IMG/VR virus record: IMGVR_UViG_3300001847_000619 | Coordinates: 1 to 61,376 of that record | Length of the DNA stretch: 61,376 nucleotides | Origin: a virus | Taxonomy: Duplodnaviria > Caudoviricetes | Direction: 5' to 3' (one strand) | Part shown: positions 1,189 through 57,951 of the stretch, piece by piece | How the letters are laid out: each line of letters starts with the position of its first letter | How positions within the stretch are numbered: the stretch's first letter is position 1 | Made by a program: the position numbers and the translations under genes | Notes under the pieces: generated by a model | Database searches by the model: none | Told to the model about the DNA's origin: nothing | The model's input: only the letters and a program-made list of their open reading frames with translations

Positions 1189-1285
1189 TTATGAAAATAA
1201 TTAAAGACTTTAAAGGACAACTTTGGTTATTTGATAGATATTGGAAATTTACTATAAAACTTCAATCACTTAAACAACCTAAATA
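1167..1285 (+). repeat. 21-bp direct repeat ATCACTTAAACAACCTAAATA at the 3' ends of two adjacent genes
   Basis: copies at 1167-1187 and 1265-1285. Confidence 0.9.
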
Positions 1286-1286
1286 A
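1191..1286 (+). CDS. 31-aa peptide MKIIKDFKGQLWLFDRYWKFTIKLQSLKQPK
   Basis: read manually; starts 2 nt after previous stop and shares its SLKQPK terminus. Confidence 0.6.
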   Translation: MKIIKDFKGQLWLFDRYWKFTIKLQSLKQPK

Positions 1287-1583
1287 TGCCAAAAGTGCAA
1301 AATAAAATAGGTTTTGGCGAAGTATAAACTAAAATAGTGTAAAATATCTGTCGCAAATATTGTAAACTTTTGAGAAAAATGGGTGCGATGCGTTAAAAGT
1401 GGGTGCAAATATTTGACAATTATTAAAAAAATTGGCTAAAATTAGGTTATTAGGATGTGTAAAAATTAGGTTAAGATAACTAGCCCTTGGTGCACAGGGA
1501 ACGAAATACATGAACAGCTCTCAGAATGGACTTCATGTCCTGCACAGCTTAAGAAATCATCCTAATCGTTGGTGGGCACAGTT

Positions 1584-1619
1584 TTGGTAGTTCTGGGGGT
1601 TATAAAAACTACCATTTTT
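1584..1619 (+). terminator. probable intrinsic terminator
   Basis: TGGTAGTT...AACTACCA stem followed by TTTTT. Confidence 0.6.
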
Positions 1620-1694
1620 AAACTTATCAATGTGTCATAAAAAGGACAAACTAATACTTGGTCAATTCCCATATAAGGGATAAATTTAACAAAA

Positions 1695-3109: not shown

Positions 3110-3558
3110 TGGCAAATTATGATTTTAATAAGGATTTGATTATTGGAAACAAGGGGGAAGAAGTTGTATTAAATGACTTAATTTCCCTTGGAGCTATTGT
3201 ATTGATAAATAGAACAGATAATAGCGATTATGACTTTATGGTTTCCCAAAATGGGAATAATATAACTTATGAGTGTAAAACTGACTTCTTCCCAGACACA
3301 GGAAATATTTTCATAGAAACAAAATGCAGAGGTAAAGATTCAGGAATATATGTAACTAAAGCAGATTGGTTTGTTACCTATTTTACATCTACAAATGAAA
3401 TATGGTATATAAAAACTAAAGACCTAAAAGAACTTATAGAAAATGTTCCCCATAAAAAAACAAAAAACGCTGGAGATAAGGGAAGTGGAACTGAAGGATA
3501 TTTAGTAAGAAAGTCAAAGTTTAGAAATAATTTTATAATTAGAAAAGTATTACAATAA
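3109..3558 (+). CDS. PD-(D/E)XK restriction-endonuclease-like protein
   Basis: GE...YDF...YECKTD...GNIFIE catalytic pattern. Confidence 0.65.
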   Translation: MANYDFNKDLIIGNKGEEVVLNDLISLGAIVLINRTDNSDYDFMVSQNGNNITYECKTDFFPDTGNIFIETKCRGKDSGIYVTKADWFVTYFTSTNEIWYIKTKDLKELIENVPHKKTKNAGDKGSGTEGYLVRKSKFRNNFIIRKVLQ

Positions 3559-4128
3559 TTTAGATTCTACTATTTTAAGTTTTGCTCTATAATCTATAAG
3601 AAGTTGTTTTAGTTCTTCCCTGCTATATTTATATATTTCTCTGCTTTCTTCTCTTAATTGTTCGGGAAGTCCTGGGTGTTCTTCATTTAATCTTTTGGTA
3701 TACTCTTCCATATTGCCATGCATATTGCAATTACAATTAGGGCATTGTGGTTTCCCATTTCTAGAATCCCACCTAAGTAATGTATCTGAACGCTTAATAT
3801 AATGACCACATTGTAGGTACTTCCAATGGTCTTTCTTCCCACAAGTATAACATTCTGCAATCCCTTTATTATTAGATTCTCTTATTCTTATGTAACGGGA
3901 AAAAGTAAAATCTAAATCATTAATCAATGATTGCCTTTCAGATAATCCATCATCACAAATAAGCCTCCTTAGTTTTGTTTTTAAGTGTGCCTTTTCTGTA
4001 TATTGCTTTGCTTTTTGTTGATTTCTACATGGGATACAATATAAGTTTTTCCCGTTCTTAACAACATTAACATCTCTATCTCCACATTCACTACAATTTC
4101 CAAATTTACTTTTAGGTATCATATTCAT
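3550..4128 (-). CDS. ninG: NinG/Rap-family recombination nuclease with N-terminal zinc finger
   Basis: FSRYIRIRE, CYTCG, CGHY, LRWD..N...QCPNCN motifs. Confidence 0.85.
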   Translation of the reverse strand: MNMIPKSKFGNCSECGDRDVNVVKNGKNLYCIPCRNQQKAKQYTEKAHLKTKLRRLICDDGLSERQSLINDLDFTFSRYIRIRESNNKGIAECYTCGKKDHWKYLQCGHYIKRSDTLLRWDSRNGKPQCPNCNCNMHGNMEEYTKRLNEEHPGLPEQLREESREIYKYSREELKQLLIDYRAKLKIVESKLL

Positions 4129-4132
4129 AAGT

Positions 4133-4164
4133 CAAAAATAAAAAAACAAGAAGTTATTTCCAAA
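4133..4164 (-). promoter_or_regulatory. Bacteroidota sigma-A type promoter for ninG
   Basis: minus strand TTTG-N20-TATTTTTG. Confidence 0.6.
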
Positions 4165-33702: not shown

Positions 33703-33746
33703 TATATCTTCCCCTTGCAAATAATAACCAAATCAAACATATAAAT

Positions 33747-34067
33747 ATGACCGAATCAAGAAAAATAGAACAACTAGAAGCACAACTAAGAAAGTACGAA
33801 GAAAACGGAGTAGCTAAACTGTATTATAGTCTAAACAGAAAAGCAAACGAAATGGCTGAAGTTTTAAATGCTAACGACCTAAAAACATTAGATATAGATG
33901 ACCCTAAATCAAAGGCATTTGAAAGACTAAAGGTTATTTGGACTGGAGCATCAGAAATAGCAGCAGCAGTAAAAGCATTAGGAGAGAATGCAGGTATAAC
34001 AGGAGATGAGAAAAAAGATGTAGAAAAGAAGCCTTTTGTAGAAACAATAGCTGAATCAAGAAGATAA
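33747..34067 (+). CDS. putative terminase small subunit
   Basis: 106-aa helical protein just upstream of TerL; positional inference. Confidence 0.4.
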   Translation: MTESRKIEQLEAQLRKYEENGVAKLYYSLNRKANEMAEVLNANDLKTLDIDDPKSKAFERLKVIWTGASEIAAAVKALGENAGITGDEKKDVEKKPFVETIAESRR

Positions 34068-39454: not shown

Positions 39455-39512
39455 TTGTTTGTGATAATAAAAAAATATAATTTTACTTAACCAATCTTAA
39501 AACCAAATCAAA

Positions 39513-42079: not shown

Positions 42080-42094
42080 TTACGATAAATCAAG

Positions 42095-42126
42095 GGGAAG
42101 TAGTGAAATCACTACTTCCCTATTTT
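42095..42126 (+). terminator. intrinsic terminator after MCP
   Basis: GGGAAGTAGTG-AAAT-CACTACTTCCC-TATTTT. Confidence 0.9.
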
Positions 42127-42151
42127 AATAACCAATCAAAAATCAATCAAA

Positions 42152-47500: not shown

Positions 47501-48561
47501 ACCATGTAAATGCAATGGGAGGAGCAAATAATAATATTGGAAATGATGTAAATGCATTTGGAGGAGGAGCTGCACAAAGTAATTCTGGAAGTGCTGTAAA
47601 TGCATTTGGAGGTTCTACTGCACAAGGAAATTCTGGAAGTAGTGTAAATGCATTTGGACCTTATGCTGCACAAGGAAATTCTGGAAGTAGTGTAAATGCA
47701 TTTGGACCTTATGCTGGACAAGGAAATATATTTTCAAATGTAAATTTATTTGGTCAAGAAGCATCGGCATCTGATAATAATCAAGTTGTTTTTTCAAAAT
47801 CAGCAGAAAATATTGTTAATGCAAGAATAGATTATAATTGTATAGATGCAAATCATAAATATAGTTTACCAAATAAAGATGGTTATTTTATGAATGCTAA
47901 TCTTCCAATAATAATAAATTCAGAAGATTCAAATGAAGTATACTTAACTAATCCAGATAATTATGAAGTAATAAATTTAAGAGATGATACATATTCAATG
48001 TTGCTTCACTTCCCTGACGCATCAAATGGATGTTTAAGTAATGGACAAAGAATGGTTATTACAAATAAAGTTATAGATAATAACAAAACAGGAGCAATAC
48101 AATTAGCAGGTAATAACATATTTTATAGAGGAACAAATATACCAGTTACAAATATAGGACCAGGAGAAACAGTTGAATTTTTAGCAGAAGTAGATGAAAA
48201 TAATAATGGTAATTGGAGAACCATTACTTCCCTTCCAGAACCAGCAGTTACTTTAGATATGGCTACATTGGGAAGTTATTATATTCATTCAAATGGAACA
48301 TATTTAATAACATCGCAAAGTGAGGGTACAATATATTTTCCTGCTCCATGTAACATGCAAGGTTCTAAAATAACATTGATAAACATTGCTGAAACTGATG
48401 TATATAACCAAGCAATAGAATCATTAGCTCCAAGTAATTGTGATAAATCTAAAATTGTAAATGCAAATTTAACTGAAATAACAGTTCAACAATTAGGAAC
48501 AAGCTCAACATATGTAGCAGTAGGAGATGCATGGTATAAAATTAGTTTTCAATCACCTTAA
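44554..48561 (+). CDS. modular fibre/adhesin-like protein with N-terminal signal peptide
   Basis: MKKIILLILLAFSFAITFS-Q; DT..LSNRINLK repeats; LQYNN.G.FGGD; 16-aa NSG..VNAFG repeats. Confidence 0.8.
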   Translation: MKKIILLILLAFSFAITFSQTYPVTQILGSPQTLVLSKGGLKADSSLIIPSFTDTNAANKSTYIKNYPGNIIRAGDQVYVRNANATKWLIFAQSGGISGTVTSISQGYGISNSPNPITTTGTIKVDTSVSGLSGKYVRILDTSVMLSKYLRKIDTATLSNRINLKVNISDTSSMLSSYLRKVDTVSLSNRINLKVNVSDTSSMLSPYLRKVDTTNKFVNSITRIPGKDSIIFYVNSNRYAIKDSSGGAGTVTRAVDTIYRTPGKDSIIFTINGIRRAIKDSLGVGGSGTPGGPTNSLQYNNNGNFGGDANLIYNGNSLGIGNPPSLYSKLVINDTFHSVFNNNDNIPNANIWLNNVNYGQNTIFSSINNLNSAKWRSDYFGNSYLVAYAGNHYFLTQSDYGESEIAPKLGLEIINNGDVAIGDSLFWKSSNNRLSINAGTNPNSALTVNGADGINFKGLPKTNYNYVLAYDSASGQLGYKTSTGGSGTVTKAVDTIYRIPGKDSIIYTINGTRRAMKDSVGKPAGQNYSLQYNNSGTFGGDAKFLYNGSNLFLGDVSSSYSKLCVGDTFTTIQNSYGSSNAQIQLQNNDFNGATAIYSEIGGGPVGKWRSDYNGSNYWVAYGGNHYFYTNGDIPDGGTSKLTIFNNGNVAVGDSLFWKSSNNRLSINAGTNPNSALTVNGADGINFKGLPKTNYNYVLAYDSASGQLGYKTSTGGSGTVTRAVDTIYRTPGKDSIIFTINGIRRAIKDSIGSGGGGGISSYGYFFDKSEQCTDSSTTGQSILLEIKDTAIANGFHIRSGSKGEIIADSTGLFNFQISVQFWGSEDRGPYDASVWMKKNGHVIRDAIKAIKWIDGFAVLTYNNILSINIGDTIEYNWTHAELRDNLALICIKPGENKVLLEEEKGASVTLSITPVLGGGGSQDLQSVLNIGHSLINERNYQGTDAGSGNTGNYVNAFGLEAAKNNSGNDVNAIGTGSAYGNNGNHVNAMGGANNNIGNDVNAFGGGAAQSNSGSAVNAFGGSTAQGNSGSSVNAFGPYAAQGNSGSSVNAFGPYAGQGNIFSNVNLFGQEASASDNNQVVFSKSAENIVNARIDYNCIDANHKYSLPNKDGYFMNANLPIIINSEDSNEVYLTNPDNYEVINLRDDTYSMLLHFPDASNGCLSNGQRMVITNKVIDNNKTGAIQLAGNNIFYRGTNIPVTNIGPGETVEFLAEVDENNNGNWRTITSLPEPAVTLDMATLGSYYIHSNGTYLITSQSEGTIYFPAPCNMQGSKITLINIAETDVYNQAIESLAPSNCDKSKIVNANLTEITVQQLGTSSTYVAVGDAWYKISFQSP
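45298..46800 (+). repeat. ~99-bp identical direct repeat (45298-45396 and 46702-46800), diverged third copy near 46012-46110
   Basis: encodes TVTRAVDTIYRTPGKDSIIFTINGIRRAIKDS. Confidence 0.85.
45815..46706 (+). repeat. ~202-bp identical direct repeat inside fibre gene (45815-46016 and 46505-46706)
   Basis: by-eye alignment, offset 690. Confidence 0.85.
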
Positions 48562-48591
48562 AAAATCTTTTTCTCATTTTAATTTAATATA

Positions 48592-48599
48592 TATATTTG
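48592..48599 (+). promoter_or_regulatory. -7 element TATATTTG upstream of lysis cassette
   Basis: TAnnTTTG in intergenic region. Confidence 0.55.
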
Positions 48600-48686
48600 C
48601 TAAGGATAAACAATTATTAAAAACAACAAAAAATACTTAAAATAATTAAAACAAAATAAGTATATTTATATATAAATAGAAATAAA

Positions 48687-48875
48687 ATGAACCACACACC
48701 TGATTTTGGAAATTTTTACTTATCAGTAATAAGTGCCTTTTTTGCGGCAATTTCATTTACTACTGTTCAACCTGTATTACAATTGTTAGCCACTTTAGTA
48801 GCTATATTTTCGGGAATATATTCCATACATATTAATTATAAAAAATCAAAACGTAAAAAAAATGAAAAGTTATAA
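48687..48875 (+). CDS. holin-like small membrane protein
   Basis: hydrophobic segments, basic C-terminus, lysis context. Confidence 0.6.
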   Translation: MNHTPDFGNFYLSVISAFFAAISFTTVQPVLQLLATLVAIFSGIYSIHINYKKSKRKKNEKL

Positions 48876-49044
48876 AACAACTTTAGTAGGAGCTGGTCTT
48901 GCTGTATTAATGGCATTGCAGCCAATTATGGAAGGTACTGGATACCATTTAAACAAAGAAACAATTGGTAAATTGCTATTCGCTGGAATGTTAGCTGCAT
49001 TCGGGTATTTAGTTAAAGACCATGATGTTTCTGGTAAACCATAA
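48862..49044 (+). CDS. holin-like 2-TM protein
   Basis: MKSYKTTLVG...GYLVKD, two TMs. Confidence 0.65.
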   Translation: MKSYKTTLVGAGLAVLMALQPIMEGTGYHLNKETIGKLLFAGMLAAFGYLVKDHDVSGKP

Positions 49045-49108
49045 TAATAAAAAGGAGCTTGTAGAAACAAGCTCCGCCTATTAACCTATGTTTATGAAAA
49101 AAAAGTTA
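49042..49108 (-). ncRNA. candidate small RNA 1 (promoter-seed-terminator cassette)
   Basis: minus-strand TTTG-N19-TATATTTG at 49142-49112; hairpin 49054-49075 with TTTCTA core and U tail. Confidence 0.6.
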
Positions 49109-49134
49109 ATACAAATATACAAAACATTTAGGTT

Positions 49135-49638
49135 ATGCCAAAATTATTTTCAATTTTATTTCTATTTTTTTTAGTAGGTTGCTATTCCCCCAAAAAAGCT
49201 GAAAAACAAATAAATAAAGCACAGCTCAATTTCCCTGAAGTTTTAGCCAAAAAATCAAAAGAATTATATCCTTGTAAACCTCAAAAAGGCGGTTCTGATT
49301 CTAGCAGATACAAGACAATTATTAAGAAAATAAAGCAGATAGATACTGCATATTTTTATACTACAGATACAGTATGTAGATTGGATACAGTTCTTATAGA
49401 AAAGAATTGTACAAAAGTATTATATAAGTATAGGGAAATTCTAAAAGAACTCCCTGCTGTTCATGATACTATTAATATTACTGATGAATCTGCTGTGACT
49501 TCCCTTACATATCAATTACAAAATAGCGTTGCAATAGCTGATAAGTACAAGCAAAAATATACCAAATCTTTATGGTTTTCTATATGGTTGTTAATAGCTA
49601 TTGCAGGATTAATATTGGTTATTAAATTTAAAAAGTAA
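49135..49638 (+). CDS. putative unimolecular spanin (lipoprotein + C-terminal TM)
   Basis: signal peptide with LVG-C lipobox; C-terminal LWFSIWLLIAIAGLILVI-KFKK; lysis cassette. Confidence 0.65.
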   Translation: MPKLFSILFLFFLVGCYSPKKAEKQINKAQLNFPEVLAKKSKELYPCKPQKGGSDSSRYKTIIKKIKQIDTAYFYTTDTVCRLDTVLIEKNCTKVLYKYREILKELPAVHDTINITDESAVTSLTYQLQNSVAIADKYKQKYTKSLWFSIWLLIAIAGLILVIKFKK

Positions 49639-49949
49639 TGTTTAGCTATCCTAATGTATGGGTAATGATATTAGCAGTCCTAATAGGAATGTGTTTTATT
49701 TCATATTGTGTTTATTATGTAAATAAACTATTTATTAATCAAACTAAAGATGTATTAGTTAGGTTTATACTTTTAGTTTTTGCATCACTTGTTGGGGTTT
49801 TTATTGTAGATAAGGTAATAGCATTTAGAATAAACTTATTAAGTGATGAGCAGAATAATCAATTGTTTGATTTAATTAAAACATTAACGCTAATGATTTT
49901 CTCATATTATTTTGGCTCACAAAAATCTAATAAAAATGAAGACAGGTGA
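49638..49949 (+). CDS. holin-like 3-TM protein
   Basis: three hydrophobic helices, SYYFGS terminus, upstream of endolysin. Confidence 0.7.
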   Translation: MFSYPNVWVMILAVLIGMCFISYCVYYVNKLFINQTKDVLVRFILLVFASLVGVFIVDKVIAFRINLLSDEQNNQLFDLIKTLTLMIFSYYFGSQKSNKNEDR

Positions 49950-50373
49950 TAAAGGAATAGCATTAATAAAAAAATGGGAAGGATGCAAACTTGATGCCTA
50001 TGTGTGCGAAGCAGGAAAAAACACAATTGGGTTTGGTAACACTTTTTATGAAGATGGTACAAAAGTAAAGCCAGGAGATAAAATAACTAAAATAAGGGCT
50101 GAAAAACTGCTTATGAATCTTCTTCCAAAGTTTGAGAATGTAGTAAATTCTAAAGTAAAAGTTCCCCTAACACAAAATCAATTTGATGCACTTGTATCTC
50201 ATACATGGAATAGTGGGGGAAGTAGTACCTTGTTTGAATTGATAAATAACAAAGCACCAAAAGAAAAGATAGTAGAGTGGTTTACTACAAAGTATATTAC
50301 AGCTAATGGGGAGTTCAAGCAAGGGCTTTTGAATAGGAGAAAAGAAGAAGCTGATTTGTTTTTTACACCTTAA
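49936..50373 (+). CDS. GH24 lysozyme endolysin
   Basis: GIALIKKWEG...AY.C.AG..TIGFG.T, LTQNQFDALVS...N.G, GL..RR..E..LF; start moved to MKTG. Confidence 0.93.
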   Translation: MKTGDKGIALIKKWEGCKLDAYVCEAGKNTIGFGNTFYEDGTKVKPGDKITKIRAEKLLMNLLPKFENVVNSKVKVPLTQNQFDALVSHTWNSGGSSTLFELINNKAPKEKIVEWFTTKYITANGEFKQGLLNRRKEEADLFFTP

Positions 50374-50382
50374 TAATACCCA

Positions 50383-51381
50383 ATGACAAAGTCAGACGTA
50401 GCTAAAAAGTATAGGGCTAAATATCCCGACTTCCCTACATTAAAATTAGCTAGAATCATGTACAAAGAAAACAATCTTTTATTTACTACAATAGAAGATG
50501 CTAGAAGTACATTAAGATATATAGAAGGTAAGATTGGAGAAAAAAATAGAGTAAGTAAAGTAAAAGAAAGCGAGTTTTTTAAAGAAGAAGAAAGACCTAA
50601 GAATCCATATAATTTACCACAAAGTTATAAGCAAGATAGAACTCCATTCGTATTGCCAATTGGATGCAATAATATTCTTTTAATATCAGACCTACATATT
50701 CCCTACCATGATATAGATGCAATAACAATAGCCTTAGATTATGGCAAAGAACATAATGTAAATACTATATTTATTAATGGAGATTTGATAGATAATGCTC
50801 AAGTTAGTAGATTTGAAAAAGACCTTAAAAAACGTAGTGTAAGGGAAGAATTTGATGCGACAAAGAAATTCTTAGTAGAGTTAAGGAAAGCATTTCCTAA
50901 TGCAGAAATATATTGGTTAAAAGGGAATCATTGTGCCCGCTGGGAGAAATTCTTAGCACAAAAAGTTACAGAAATTTGGGATGACCCTTATTTCCATTTA
51001 GAAGAAAGATTGAGATTGCATGAAGAAAGAATAAAAATACTTGATGATTCAACTCTTGTTAAGGCAGGGAAGTTATCTATTACGCATGGGCATCACATAT
51101 TTAAGGGTATATTTTCCCCTGTATCTCCAGCAAGGGGAGCTTACATGAAAGCAAAGCAAAGTGTTATAGTTGGGCATTTGCATAGAACTTCTCAAAATTC
51201 AGAAATGGATTTAGATGGTAATGTAGTTAGTTGTTGGTCTCAAGGTTGTTTGTGTGAGCTTAGAACAAACTATTCTCCTATAGCAAGTAATTCGCAACAT
51301 GGATTTGCTCATATTCTTGTTCAACCTAATGGAGATTACAATGTACATAATTATCAGATAATCAAGGGGAAGATACATTAA
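50383..51381 (+). CDS. calcineurin-like metallophosphoesterase
   Basis: SDLH, NGDLID, GNH, HGH, GHLH. Confidence 0.9.
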   Translation: MTKSDVAKKYRAKYPDFPTLKLARIMYKENNLLFTTIEDARSTLRYIEGKIGEKNRVSKVKESEFFKEEERPKNPYNLPQSYKQDRTPFVLPIGCNNILLISDLHIPYHDIDAITIALDYGKEHNVNTIFINGDLIDNAQVSRFEKDLKKRSVREEFDATKKFLVELRKAFPNAEIYWLKGNHCARWEKFLAQKVTEIWDDPYFHLEERLRLHEERIKILDDSTLVKAGKLSITHGHHIFKGIFSPVSPARGAYMKAKQSVIVGHLHRTSQNSEMDLDGNVVSCWSQGCLCELRTNYSPIASNSQHGFAHILVQPNGDYNVHNYQIIKGKIH

Positions 51382-51438
51382 TAATAAAGCCCTATAGAAA
51401 TAGGGCTCGCTTATTATCAAAATTAACTAACTATGTCA
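51378..51438 (-). ncRNA. candidate small RNA 2 (promoter-seed-terminator cassette)
   Basis: minus-strand TTTG-N19-TATATTTG at 51472-51442; hairpin 51388-51407 with TTTCTA core, U-rich tail. Confidence 0.6.
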
Positions 51439-51460
51439 ATGCAAATATAACCAATCAATT

Positions 51461-51637
51461 ATGAAAAACAAAATAGAATTATTATTACAAGGACTTCCCA
51501 TTTCAGAAAAAATAAGTATATTAGAATCGCTTTGTAAAAAGTATAGAAGAGAAAATAGCGTTAGAATAAATGCTAAACAAATGGGAAGAAGAGTAGATGA
51601 AGAACGACCAGATTTACAAACCTTAAAATCACGATGA
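51461..51637 (+). CDS. 58-aa hypothetical protein
   Basis: manual translation MKNKIELLLQGLPISEKI...; ATGA overlap with next gene. Confidence 0.6.
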   Translation: MKNKIELLLQGLPISEKISILESLCKKYRRENSVRINAKQMGRRVDEERPDLQTLKSR

Positions 51638-51996
51638 AAAAAAGTAAAAAGATTAAGCTATCTACTTATAACTGTAATTTAATTGTAATAATAACAGATA
51701 GATTAACAGAAGAAGTAAATAGTATTTATAAGAGGCTTAATCATAACGAATCTTTTCAAGGGGAAGCAGAAGGGGTATTGCTTACAATAGATATAGATAA
51801 TTACTATCTTATATATGACATAAATTACCTTAGCCATAATACCATAGCTCACGAAATATATCATGCAGTAGTAAAGGTAACAGAGGATAGAGATATTGTA
51901 GAGGAAGAGCCACAAGCTTGGTTATGTGGTTATTTAGCTGAAGAAGTATACAAGTATATTCAGAAGAATAATTTTAAAATAATCAAGGGAAAGTAA
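51634..51996 (+). CDS. HExxH zincin-like protein
   Basis: TIAHEIYHAV...EEPQAW. Confidence 0.75.
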   Translation: MKKSKKIKLSTYNCNLIVIITDRLTEEVNSIYKRLNHNESFQGEAEGVLLTIDIDNYYLIYDINYLSHNTIAHEIYHAVVKVTEDRDIVEEEPQAWLCGYLAEEVYKYIQKNNFKIIKGK

Positions 51997-51997
51997 A

Positions 51998-52023
51998 AAG
52001 GCTCTCATTTATTAGAGAGCCTT
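51998..52023. terminator. hairpin between convergent gene blocks
   Basis: AAGGCTCTC-N8-GAGAGCCTT. Confidence 0.75.
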
Positions 52024-52090
52024 GTATTTATTCTCAATAAAATTTAATTGCAATATCATTTCCATTGCATTTTCTATCCCATTGACTTCC

Positions 52091-52369
52091 CTAAATTTCA
52101 GTATCTTTTTTATCAATTTTAACATCTGTTTTTTGAATTATTAGTGTTATGTCTTTCCCATTTTCCATTATTACTATTTCATCGGGCAAATGAGTAAATA
52201 CTGCATTTTTTAAACTACTTGGATACTCACTCATCTTCCCCTTGCAATAACTTGTTATATCCCCCAATGAATAGGATGCTTTACCTTCATTATGTATTGC
52301 GATTAAACCAAATAAATCGTTATTTAATAAACCTCTTCTTTTAATGATAGGTTGTAATTCTGTTGTCAT
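52091..52369 (-). CDS. hypothetical protein
   Basis: 92-aa ORF, A-rich leader. Confidence 0.65.
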   Translation of the reverse strand: MTTELQPIIKRRGLLNNDLFGLIAIHNEGKASYSLGDITSYCKGKMSEYPSSLKNAVFTHLPDEIVIMENGKDITLIIQKTDVKIDKKDTEI

Positions 52370-57349: not shown

Positions 57350-57800
57350 TTAGCTAAATAGTTTAGTAAAGCTAAAAAATTTAGCATTTCTCTTTTTCCC
57401 CTTGTTCCATACAATAACCCCCCACCCAATAAAACAAAATAAAACAAACCAAACAAACCAACGCCAAAAACCCCCATTTTCCCCTTGCTAAATACCTTAG
57501 TAATGCTTACTAATATCCTTAGCATACAACACAATACCCCCGTAACGAATTTATAGCCAATTTAACGCCCTTTATTCGCCTTTCCTTTGTCTTCCCCTTG
57601 CCCAACAAATTAAACCCCATAAAATCGCCTTAAATTAAGCCGTTAAAAATTCAATCCCATATTTAAAAACCAAAAACCGAAACCGAAACCCAAAAACAAA
57701 CTCCCGCCCCTTTGCCGTTTACAAATTCCCAAACCGAGAGCCGCCCCCCTATTCCTAGCGTACAATGTCCCCCCCTCTAAGAGTTGTATAGGTTTTTTAT
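57350..57800. other. non-coding, strongly C/A-skewed divergence region; candidate genome terminus / pac region
   Basis: G-poor plus strand, C-runs, AAAC and AAACCG repeats, no credible ORF. Confidence 0.45.
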
Positions 57801-57849: not shown

Positions 57850-57907
57850 TCTCATGGATAGTTTTTTTTAGTGTACCCCTGGTGTTTCTACATTGGGGGT
57901 TTTCTTG
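57850..57907 (+). ncRNA. candidate small RNA 3, antisense to early-gene leaders
   Basis: seed CATGGATAGTTTTTTTTAGTGT then ACCCCTGGTG-TTTCTA-CATTGGGGGT-TTTCTT terminator; TAGCTTTA -7-like element at 57839. Confidence 0.65.
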
Positions 57908-57919
57908 TTAAAAAAAATA

Positions 57920-57951
57920 TTTGGATAATACAATCTACTTTTGTAGATTTG
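57920..57951 (+). promoter_or_regulatory. promoter of recombination operon
   Basis: TTTG-N20-TAGATTTG. Confidence 0.65.

What the first reader, a model, noticed from the sequence alone, without database searches (positions are those of the whole stretch)
49042..51472. Two more promoter-seed-terminator sRNA cassettes with the same TTTCTA hairpin, antisense within the lysis region
Seen: two intergenic units on the minus strand, each with an exact TTTG-N19-TATATTTG promoter (49142-49112 and 51472-51442), a ~30-nt single-stranded part, and a GC hairpin with TTTCTA core plus U-rich tail (49054-49075 and 51388-51407). The core matches that of sRNA 3. Both single-stranded parts are antisense to start-codon-like sequence (CTATTAACCTATGTTTATGAAAAAAAAG; AAAATTAACTAACTATGTCAATG). 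No perfect target was found in the window; the closest is AAAATTAATTTATGTCAA at the GT gene 10122. Inference: a family of phage sRNAs with a common scaffold and swappable seeds, possibly silencing host (for example defence) genes. The shared loop could recruit a protein.
Basis: partly seen in the sequence, partly recalled or inferred. Interest (0 to 1): 0.78.

Follow-up and report, generated by a model that had tools for sequence, protein, structure and literature searches.

The report
Antisense promoter-terminator mini-units in phage lysis genes
Two gene-free stretches between the cell-bursting genes of an uncultured freshwater phage each carry a perfect host-type promoter and a terminator pointing against the genes, so they probably make tiny antisense RNAs that tune those genes, although no RNA data exist to prove it.

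Summary
The window is a whole 61-kb virus record. Its only two exact TTTG-N19-TATATTTG matches lie on the minus strand at 49142-49112 and 51472-51442. Each sits 33-36 nt upstream of a minus-strand hairpin plus T-rich tail, in spacers between plus-strand genes. No ORF lies between promoter and terminator. Of 100 shuffles, none gave two such units.

At the first junction (holin-like gene to lipoprotein gene), 4 of 15 related loci carry a homologous hairpin. It pairs fully only on the minus strand, through G.U wobbles and three compensatory pairs, and has a minus-strand -7 box. The second unit is absent from both relatives with the same gene order.

The "common scaffold" idea fails. The TTTCTA loop is the commonest terminator loop in this phage group (9 of 25). 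The single-stranded parts are not significantly alike. No target was found inside the phage, and no conserved seed elsewhere.

Best reading (about 0.45): self-contained units for ~55-60-nt cis-antisense RNAs from Bacteroidota-type promoters. They would modulate the lysis operon by pairing or by head-on transcription. Expression is untested; no RNA run holds this phage. Rivals: host-directed RNAs, backstop terminators, plus-strand hairpins.

The parts
49112..49142 (-). Unit 1 promoter. -33 TTTG at 49142-49139, a 19-nt spacer, and -7 TATATTTG at 49119-49112. It overlaps the first codons and the leader of the plus-strand gene that starts at 49135.
   Evidence: Exact pattern match; sequence. The consensus and the position of G at -5 come from passages of PMC6847099.
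49046..49107 (-). Unit 1 predicted transcript, about 55-62 nt. The start near 49107 is inferred as 5 nt after the -7 box G. The 3' end would fall in the U-tract. There is no ATG in it.
   Evidence: Inference. The fold shows a 5' unpaired part and a terminal hairpin, -16.8 kcal/mol, z -5.06.
49054..49075 (-). Unit 1 terminator hairpin: 9 bp with a UUCU loop, followed on the minus strand by TTTTTATTAT (49053-49044).
   Evidence: Energy is -15.2 kcal/mol on the minus strand and -14.8 on the plus strand.
51442..51472 (-). Unit 2 promoter. -33 TTTG at 51472-51469, a 19-nt spacer, and -7 TATATTTG at 51449-51442. It overlaps the start of the plus-strand gene at 51461.
   Evidence: Exact pattern match; sequence.
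51378..51437 (-). Unit 2 predicted transcript, about 52-60 nt, with an inferred start near 51437. There is no ATG in it.
   Evidence: Inference. Fold: -17.6 kcal/mol, z -4.76.
51387..51408 (-). Unit 2 terminator hairpin: 8 Watson-Crick pairs plus one G.U pair on the minus strand, with a UUCU loop. The tail TATTATTAAT is a weaker U-tract than in unit 1. The scan also scores it as terminator-like on the plus strand.
   Evidence: Energy is -13.3 kcal/mol on the minus strand and -11.7 on the plus strand.
48687..49044 (+). Two small overlapping genes (62 aa at 48687-48875; 60 aa at 48862-49044). They are holin-like by size and position only and match no family. The 60-aa gene ends right at the unit 1 terminator.
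   Evidence: ORFs; no Pfam or PHROG match; homologues upstream of the same junction in L020, L066 and L138.
49135..49638 (+). 167-aa protein with an N-terminal lipoprotein signal (Cys16) and a C-terminal hydrophobic tail. Calling it spanin-like is my reading of those features. It is the gene downstream of unit 1.
   Evidence: Sequence; alignment A1 with invariant C16; no Pfam or PHROG match.
49912..50373 (+). Phage lysozyme (endolysin). The ATG at 49937 is the likelier start.
   Evidence: PF00959, E 1.5e-31.
50383..51381 (+). Calcineurin-like metallophosphoesterase. It ends at the unit 2 terminator.
   Evidence: PF00149, E 1.7e-09; 64 related viral loci.
51461..51996 (+). 58-aa and 120-aa genes downstream of unit 2. 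They are the last plus-strand genes before the convergent block.
   Evidence: ORFs; phrog_1365 for the 120-aa protein; p58 homologues in L018 and L020.
48569..48599 (+). Candidate sense promoter of the lysis cluster: TTTT-N19-TATATTTG, with one mismatch in -33.
51998..52023 (.). Hairpin at the point where plus-strand and minus-strand gene blocks converge. It is terminator-like on both strands.

Best explanation
Each unit is a self-contained, ORF-less transcription unit on the minus strand. A consensus Bacteroidota primary-sigma promoter would fire about 55-60 nt into an intrinsic terminator. The resulting small RNA is exactly complementary to the spacer of the plus-strand lysis-cluster mRNA.

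The units act in cis. One route is pairing with the polycistronic mRNA at the junction, giving a roughly 55-bp duplex that could be cut or could hinder the downstream start. The other route is head-on promoter occupancy and collision over the downstream gene's start region. Either would damp expression across the junction while host-type promoters are active. Strong late sense transcription would then override it.

Shown: the promoter and terminator sequences, their orientation, their non-random pairing, and selection on the hairpin as minus-strand RNA in relatives.

Inferred: that the promoters fire, where the RNA begins and ends, that a sense transcript spans the junction, and the regulatory effect.
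For: - The only 2 exact TTTG-N19-TATATTTG sites in 61 kb are these two. Both are antisense and both lie 33-36 nt upstream of a minus-strand terminator.
- 0 of 100 shuffles give 2 such units.
- The same motif sits upstream of same-strand genes in relatives: 14 matches against 3 for the reversed control in 13 records, and most of those fetched are followed by an ATG within about 17-50 nt. So it behaves as a real promoter in this phage group.
- The phage looks Bacteroidota-hosted. Only 3 of 62 genes have an SD-like 4-mer, and A is enriched at -3, -7 and -11 to -13. Relatives of its phosphoesterase gene sit in Bacteroidota and Sediminibacterium MAG contigs.
- The terminators point the 'wrong' way for the genes. 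The true plus-strand terminator after the capsid gene has its T-tail on the plus strand.
- At the same junction, L020, L018/L029 and L138 carry a homologous hairpin. 27 of 27 cells pair on the minus strand, 3 of 9 pairs changed on both sides, and there are three G.U pairs (two invariant, one a C-G in one of the three sequences) that would be A.C on the plus strand.
- Those hairpins are about twice as stable on the minus strand: -12.3 vs -6.7, and -12.1 vs -5.9 kcal/mol.
- In those relatives the -7 box, hairpin and T-tail are kept (21 of 29 positions invariant), while the spacer is not (4 of 24). That fits a cis or transcription-level role, not a conserved seed.
- Two more ORF-less antisense units lie between co-directional genes in other phages. 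L002 has one after the terminase gene, at -17.8 vs -10.5 kcal/mol; L082 has another.
- In all six units the antisense promoter overlaps or abuts the downstream gene's start region.
Against: - There is no expression evidence of any kind.
- The host is inferred, not known.
- In the window the predicted duplex ends 28 and 24 nt upstream of the start codons. Direct masking of initiation is therefore not obvious there. In L020, L018 and L138 it would end about 17 nt upstream.
- The units are patchy. 11 of 15 related loci examined at the unit 1 junction have no such hairpin. Unit 2 is missing from 2 of 2 relatives with the same gene adjacency.
- The -33 TTTG is not kept in relatives: TTGG in L020, and none clear in L018 or L138.
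- The complement of the -7 box is A-rich and falls in the A-rich leader of the downstream gene. 6 of 57 plus-strand genes have an antisense -7 box near their start. Conservation of that box in relatives could therefore reflect translation signals.
- The window's own stems are perfect on both strands, so they do not themselves tell the strand.
- Unit 2's U-tract is poor.
Confidence: 0.45

Rival explanations
1. Trans-acting phage small RNAs. The units are RNA-only 'morons' whose unpaired 5' parts pair with host mRNAs, for example defence genes. The antisense placement is incidental, or lets late mRNA soak the RNA up.
For: - The promoter, a roughly 30-nt unpaired part and a terminator hairpin form the usual anatomy of base-pairing small RNAs.
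- The patchy, insertion-like distribution resembles accessory cargo: unit 2 is absent from L018 and L020, and L066 has a 40-aa ORF instead at the unit 1 junction.
- Similar ORF-less units sit at unrelated junctions in L002 and L082.
Against: - No conserved seed. The U1/U2 spacer similarity is matched by 283 of 2000 shuffles.
- The spacer is the least conserved part among the three homologous units (4 of 24 invariant).
- A pattern for the U1/U2 shared words found 0 places in IMG/VR.
- No phage start region pairs better than shuffled seeds do: 6 of 40 and 8 of 40 shuffles did as well.
- The 'shared loop' is a generic terminator loop.
- Unit 1 keeps the same junction in diverged phages, which points to a local role.
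- Host targets could not be tested.
Confidence: 0.15
2. Backstop terminators. The hairpins stop stray leftward transcription, coming from the convergent minus-strand block at 52-57 kb or from spurious sites in AT-rich DNA, before it runs antisense through upstream genes. The promoter-like sites would be by-products of the A-rich leaders of the downstream genes.
For: - The minus-strand block converges on this region at about 52000. The hairpin there has only a weak minus-strand tail.
- Unit 2 lies only about 600 nt inside.
- The antisense -7 box overlaps the A-rich leader, and 6 of 57 plus-strand genes have such a box by their start.
- The -33 is not conserved in relatives.
Against: - Both window sites are exact full-consensus promoters. 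They are the only two in the genome, and only 2 of 57 gene starts have a full antisense promoter: exactly those next to the terminators.
- A second backstop 2.4 kb further in would be needless without a local source of antisense transcription.
- L002 and L082 show the same full promoter plus terminator pairing elsewhere.
Confidence: 0.2
3. Plus-strand function only. The hairpins are intercistronic stabilisers or weak terminators of the sense mRNA, and the rest of each spacer is leader sequence. The minus-strand signals would be fortuitous.
For: - In the window both stems are perfect and nearly as stable on the plus strand: -14.8 and -11.7 kcal/mol.
- The unit 2 hairpin also scores as terminator-like on the plus strand.
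- The unit 2 leader shares the AACCAATCAA word with leaders of three other late genes.
Against: - The homologous hairpins in L020, L018 and L138 need G.U pairs that exist only on the minus strand, and they lose about half their stability on the plus strand.
- The T-runs follow the hairpin on the minus strand. On the plus strand unit 1 is followed by GCCTATTAACC.
- Genuine plus-strand terminators in this phage and its relatives carry plus-strand T-tails.
Confidence: 0.1

Closest known systems
Phage lambda OOP RNA (77 nt, cis-antisense to cII) and the lambda aQ antisense RNA
   Same: Each is a short RNA from its own promoter inside a phage operon, transcribed against the genes and ended by its own terminator. 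It acts on the complementary mRNA; OOP promotes RNase III-dependent decay. I read passages and the table of the review PMC12197685.
   Different: OOP overlaps the 3' end of a coding region. The units here cover only the spacer. The host promoter type is Bacteroidota rather than sigma-70. There is no sequence or Rfam relation. The target genes are lysis-cluster genes, not lysogeny regulators.
Phage P22 sar RNA (68/69 nt)
   Same: It is a small RNA made from the spacer between two co-directional phage genes, on the opposite strand, and it pairs with the downstream gene's mRNA (review PMC12197685, passages). That sar lies between arc and ant is my recollection, not something from a call.
   Different: sar covers the ribosome-binding region of ant. 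In the window the predicted RNAs stop 24-28 nt before the start codon. There is no homology.
PAK_P4as15, an antisense RNA at the endolysin gene of Pseudomonas phage PAK_P4
   Same: It is an antisense RNA in a lysis region, proposed to delay lysis, and it is present in one phage but absent from a close relative (review PMC12197685, passages and table). The units here are patchy in the same way.
   Different: PAK_P4as15 is about 550 nt long, overlaps the endolysin gene, and was seen in RNA-seq. The units here are about 55-60 nt, spacer-only, and unobserved as RNA.
Cis-encoded antisense small RNAs of Bacteroides polysaccharide-utilisation loci (recalled, not checked in a call)
   Same: They are cis-antisense RNAs driven by Bacteroidota-type promoters that repress the adjacent operon.
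   Different: They are chromosomal rather than phage-borne, longer, and overlap the 5' part of the target gene. This row rests on my memory only.
Phage 'morons' (promoter, gene and terminator inserted between late genes; recalled concept)
   Same: The units are insertion-like, self-contained transcription units sitting between two genes that are adjacent in relatives.
   Different: They contain no ORF and are oriented against the operon.

Membership tests
Bacteroidota primary-sigma promoter (-33 TTTG / -7 TAnnTTTG) | -7 element TAnnTTTG, refined to TAHHTTTG | tested here: met
   TATATTTG is present in both units. The definition comes from passages of PMC6847099.
Bacteroidota primary-sigma promoter (-33 TTTG / -7 TAnnTTTG) | -33 element TTTG at the consensus spacing | tested here: met
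   TTTG lies exactly 19 nt upstream in both units. In relatives it is TTGG (L020) or absent (L018, L138).
Bacteroidota primary-sigma promoter (-33 TTTG / -7 TAnnTTTG) | The host uses this promoter type (a Bacteroidota host) | tested here: inconclusive
   All evidence is indirect. Leaders lack SD sequences and have A at -3. The motif sits upstream of same-strand genes in relatives. Related contigs are binned with Bacteroidota and Sediminibacterium MAGs. The best cultured hit is a Chryseobacterium phage at 38% identity.
Bacteroidota primary-sigma promoter (-33 TTTG / -7 TAnnTTTG) | Transcription starts about 5 nt after the -7 box | not testable with these tools
   No RNA run holds this phage.
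Intrinsic (factor-independent) terminator | G+C-rich stem-loop followed directly by a U-run on the transcribed strand | tested here: met
   Both are called on the minus strand. Unit 1's tail has 8 T in 10. Unit 2's tail is weaker, with 6 T in 10.
Intrinsic (factor-independent) terminator | The structure is selected on that strand's RNA | tested here: met
   This was tested in homologues only. 27 of 27 cells pair, 3 pairs are compensatory, and G.U pairs are minus-strand-only. Energies agree. The window's own stems are uninformative.
Cis-encoded antisense small RNA (OOP, sar, PAK_P4as15 type) | Own promoter and terminator on the strand opposite to a gene cluster | tested here: met
Cis-encoded antisense small RNA (OOP, sar, PAK_P4as15 type) | The RNA is made and overlaps a sense transcript | not testable with these tools
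   There are no RNA data. A sense transcript across the junction is inferred from the lack of a plus-strand terminator at unit 1.
Cis-encoded antisense small RNA (OOP, sar, PAK_P4as15 type) | Overlap with the target's start region or coding sequence | tested here: not met
   The predicted RNAs cover only the spacer and end 28 and 24 nt before the start codons. In relatives they end about 17 nt before.
Trans-acting base-pairing small RNA family | Conserved seed among homologues | tested here: not met
Trans-acting base-pairing small RNA family | Targets with better-than-chance complementarity | tested here: inconclusive
   None was found among 62 phage start regions. The host genome is unknown.
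Any Rfam family | Match to a curated covariance model | tested here: not met
   0 matches at gathering score in the window, and 0 at E up to 1 in 48500-52100.

The most novel reading that the evidence does not exclude
Bacteroidota phages carry a class of portable, ORF-less antisense 'RNA morons'. Each is a consensus host promoter firing about 55 nt into a terminator, dropped between co-directional late genes with the promoter laid over the next gene's start. They would work as programmable operon valves or timers. Early host-sigma transcription keeps the junction shut, by RNA pairing and by head-on polymerase traffic, and late sense transcription opens it. Their RNAs may additionally act on host mRNAs until late phage mRNA soaks them up.
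Probability: 0.15. Interest if true: 0.7.

Novelty: new variant of a known kind. Interest (0 to 1): 0.5.

Why it matters
Gene regulation in phages of Bacteroidota is almost unmapped. My searches found no paper that describes a phage antisense or small RNA for this phylum, and a 2025 review of phage small RNAs contains no word beginning 'Bacteroid'.

If these units fire, they would be the first such RNAs in this phage group. They would also give a compact, easily tested example of lysis-cluster control by antisense transcription.

The units are tiny and modular, about 100 bp each, with clear promoter and terminator signals. A reporter test in a Flavobacterium or Bacteroides laboratory strain would be quick.

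A by-product is that terminators in this phage group strongly prefer a U-UUCU-A loop. That should help terminator prediction, and it warns against reading that loop as a specific RNA motif.

Tried and rejected
- **RNA evidence.** No RNA holder was listed for 48500-52100.
- **Laying contigs.** I laid contigs of three DNA runs. Contigs identical to the window cover unit 1 (X5, X6, X2) and unit 2 (X6). Divergent-strain contigs stop short of the units. So there was no variation to read and no conclusion to draw.
- **Covariance model.** The six units do not align: 42% column identity, with no shared block beyond the loop and T-run. So I built no model, since it would only describe 'promoter plus generic terminator'.
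- **Seed conservation.** The seed-conservation pattern gave 0 hits in IMG/VR.
- **Targets in the phage.** The search among 62 phage start regions did no better than shuffles (one search timed out and was rerun).
- **More relatives of the 167-aa protein.** The alignment search added only L066 in viral contigs and L138 in metagenome contigs.
- **Cultured phages.** No nucleotide relative was found and there was no capsid match.
- **Rfam.** Nothing.
- **Small ORFs in the RNAs.** There is no ATG. The 66- and 69-aa TTG frames that begin in or near the hairpins would need terminator read-through. They lie antisense to real genes, so I rejected them.
- **Long gene-free stretch at 1189-1694.** The 1440-1650 part folds no better than shuffles, z -0.85.
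- **Paper supplements.** They were not opened, and none bears on a claim made here.


Full report
**What the window is.** The window is a complete IMG/VR virus record of 61,376 bp. Its G+C content is 30.6% and it is estimated to be 80% complete. It is a tailed phage with helicase, methyltransferase, terminase, portal, capsid, NinG, RusA and exonuclease genes. No cultured phage is close: the nucleotide search matched only about 90 bp of the endolysin gene in two Acinetobacter phages, and the capsid protein had no match. Near-identical DNA occurs in aquatic and freshwater metagenome runs from three studies. Genes run on the plus strand up to about 52,000. A minus-strand block then converges on them.

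**The observation.** Gene order in the region is as follows:
- 62-aa and 60-aa small proteins;
- unit 1;
- a 167-aa lipoprotein-like protein with a C-terminal hydrophobic tail;
- a 103-aa protein;
- phage lysozyme (PF00959);
- a metallophosphoesterase (PF00149);
- unit 2;
- 58-aa and 120-aa proteins;
- a hairpin at 51998-52023.

On the minus strand each has TTTG, 19 nt, TATATTTG, then 33-36 nt, then a 9-bp hairpin with a UUCU loop and a T-rich tail.

These are the only two exact matches to that promoter pattern in the window. With TTTG-N18-20-TAHHTTTG the window has 5 promoters, and 2 of them are followed by a terminator. In 100 dinucleotide-preserving shuffles the mean was 0.01 such units and none had two. 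A pattern for the complete unit found 46 places in the whole viral collection, and only one of them (L082) had a real stem around TTTCTA.

**Is the promoter motif meaningful here?** The -33/-7 consensus TTTG/TANNTTTG is the promoter of the Bacteroidetes primary sigma factor, with the G of the -7 box at -5. I read this in passages of PMC6847099.

The phage fits such a host, for these reasons:
- Only 3 of 62 genes have an SD-like 4-mer upstream, and A dominates positions -3, -7 and -11 to -13.
- Relatives of the phosphoesterase gene lie on contigs binned with a Bacteroidota MAG and a Sediminibacterium MAG. This is weak evidence, because the contigs are short.
- The best cultured-phage hit for that protein is a Chryseobacterium phage at 38% identity.

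In 13 related phage records the exact motif occurs 14 times, against 3 for the reversed control. Most of the sites I fetched sit upstream of a same-strand gene, with an ATG within about 17-50 nt. The motif therefore behaves as a working promoter in this phage group. Placing the start 5 nt after the -7 box gives RNA starts near 49107 and 51437 and lengths of about 55-60 nt. This is inference.

**Which strand do the hairpins serve?** In the window both stems are perfect, so they fold on either strand: -15.2 vs -14.8 and -13.3 vs -11.7 kcal/mol. The T-runs follow the hairpins on the minus strand. On the plus strand unit 1 is followed by GCCTATTAACC. A genuine plus-strand terminator, after the capsid gene at 42095-42120, has its T-tail on the plus strand.

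Relatives settle the question. At the same junction (60-aa-like gene to 167-aa-like gene), L020, L018 (with near-identical L029) and L138 carry a homologous hairpin. It pairs in 27 of 27 cells on the minus strand. 3 of 9 pairs changed on both sides. Three pairs are G.U wobbles that would be A.C on the plus strand; two of these are G.U in all three sequences and the third is a C-G pair in one sequence. With only three sequences the shuffle control is modest: 17 of 500 shuffles reach the observed values. These hairpins lose about half their stability on the plus strand: -12.3 vs -6.7 and -12.1 vs -5.9 kcal/mol. Each has a minus-strand TAnnTTTG box 24-30 nt upstream.

**What is and is not conserved.** Among those three homologous units, 21 of 29 positions in the hairpin and tail are invariant, but only 4 of 24 in the spacer. 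The neighbouring 167-aa proteins are only 35-40% identical.

The units are also patchy:
- Of 15 related loci examined at this junction (13, L066, L138), 4 have the unit. These represent 3 distinct sequences.
- Nine of the others have a 10-25-nt spacer. L066 has a 40-aa basic ORF there. L032 has a plus-strand hairpin.
- Unit 2 is absent from both relatives with the phosphoesterase-to-58-aa adjacency. L018 and L020 have 8-9-nt spacers there.

Two further ORF-less, antisense promoter-terminator units lie between co-directional genes elsewhere. One is in L002, after the terminase large subunit, with a hairpin of -17.8 vs -10.5 kcal/mol. The other is in L082. In all six units the antisense promoter overlaps or abuts the start region of the downstream gene.

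- The TTTCTA core is not a family mark. Of 25 distinct strong terminator hairpins with 4-nt loops in the window and relatives, 10 have TTCT and 9 have TTTCTA. These include ordinary plus-strand gene-end terminators and the hairpin at 57875-57900.
- The six units do not align: 42% column identity.
- The words shared by the two window spacers (ACATAG, GTTAAT) are not significant; 283 of 2000 shuffles score as well.
- A pattern built on those words found nothing in IMG/VR.
- Pairing of the two 5' parts with 62 phage start regions is no better than for shuffled seeds: 6 of 40 and 8 of 40 shuffles did as well.
- No Rfam family matches.
- The plus-strand ATGs in the spacers are about what the base composition predicts. 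This is my estimate.

**Mechanism.** I favour self-contained cis-antisense units (about 0.45). A host-type promoter is laid over the next gene's start. It fires toward a terminator that stops exactly at the previous gene's stop codon, which confines antisense transcription to the spacer.

The product could pair with the polycistronic lysis-cluster mRNA. The promoter traffic itself could also hinder sense polymerases. A near-consensus sense promoter lies at 48569-48599. Either way the junction is damped while host-type promoters are active, and strong late sense transcription can override it. Conservation of the promoter and terminator but not of the spacer, and the fixed junction in diverged phages, fit this reading.

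Weak points:
- There are no RNA data.
- The predicted duplex stops 24-28 nt before the start codons in the window.
- The -33 is not kept in relatives.
- The -7 box complement coincides with the A-rich leader. 6 of 57 plus-strand genes have an antisense -7 box near their start, though only these 2 have the full promoter.

Rivals are trans-acting host-directed RNAs (0.15), backstop terminators against leftward read-through with incidental promoter-like leaders (0.2), and plus-strand-only hairpins (0.1).

**Comparison with known systems.** The closest known systems are lambda OOP and aQ, P22 sar, and the endolysin-associated PAK_P4as15. I read passages and a table of the review PMC12197685 for these.

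The units here resemble them in working principle: own promoter and terminator, opposite strand, inside an operon, and patchy among relatives. They differ in several ways:
- They are spacer-only.
- They use a Bacteroidota promoter.
- They lack any sequence relation to the known RNAs.
- They are unobserved as RNA.

The membership feature 'overlaps the target's start or coding region' is not met in the window.

Four full-text searches listed no paper whose title or abstract describes antisense or small RNAs of Bacteroidota phages. The review has no occurrence of 'Bacteroid'. That covers only the held library.

**Verdict.** This is a new variant of a known kind (phage cis-antisense RNA units). 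Interest is moderate: the finding is cleanly testable but unproven.

Noticed in passing
window 57380-57760 and 57875-57900: A strongly C-rich, G-poor stretch with CCCC runs and AACCGAAACC-like repeats lies in the divergent region between the minus-strand and plus-strand early blocks. It is followed by a plus-strand terminator hairpin with the TTTCTA core, then a promoter-like site at 57920-57951. It could be an origin or a non-coding transcript.
   Followed up: partly
window 33703-33746, 39455-39512, 42080-42151, 51382-51460: The word AACCAATCAA, or a near variant, recurs in the plus-strand leaders of four late genes, those starting at 33747, 39513, 42152 and 51461. It may be a leader or late-promoter element. 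No statistics were done.
   Followed up: no
L053 3806-5749; also L055: In two relatives the metallophosphoesterase gene carries an in-frame insertion of about 315 aa right after the conserved GNHC motif. The result is one 647-aa ORF in L053. By position and by the residues at the junctions it looks intein-like. It was not tested against families.
   Followed up: partly
window and loci L002-L074: Terminators of this phage group strongly prefer a UUCU tetraloop closed by U-A. 10 of 25 distinct strong hairpins have TTCT and 9 have TTTCTA. This may be a trait of the host's terminators.
   Followed up: yes
window 4133-4164 (minus strand): A promoter-like site, TTTG-N20-TATTTTTG, ends only 5 nt before the ATG of the minus-strand NinG-like gene (3550-4128). 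This suggests a leaderless or nearly leaderless mRNA.
   Followed up: no
L066 2334-2456: The closest relative at the unit 1 junction has, instead of the unit, a 40-aa very basic ORF between the 60-aa gene and the 167-aa gene.
   Followed up: no
L009 4440-4580; L134 near 2100-2200: At the end of the plus-strand block some relatives have a plus-strand TATATTTG box followed by two tandem terminator hairpins with no ORF. This is a possible sense-oriented small transcription unit.
   Followed up: no
window 49135-49638: The 167-aa protein combines a lipoprotein signal (invariant Cys16) with a C-terminal membrane anchor, like a one-piece spanin. It matches no Pfam or PHROG family.
   Followed up: partly
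window 1189-1694: This is a 506-nt gene-free stretch with a locally G+C-rich part. The 1440-1650 part folds no better than shuffles, z -0.85.
   Followed up: yes
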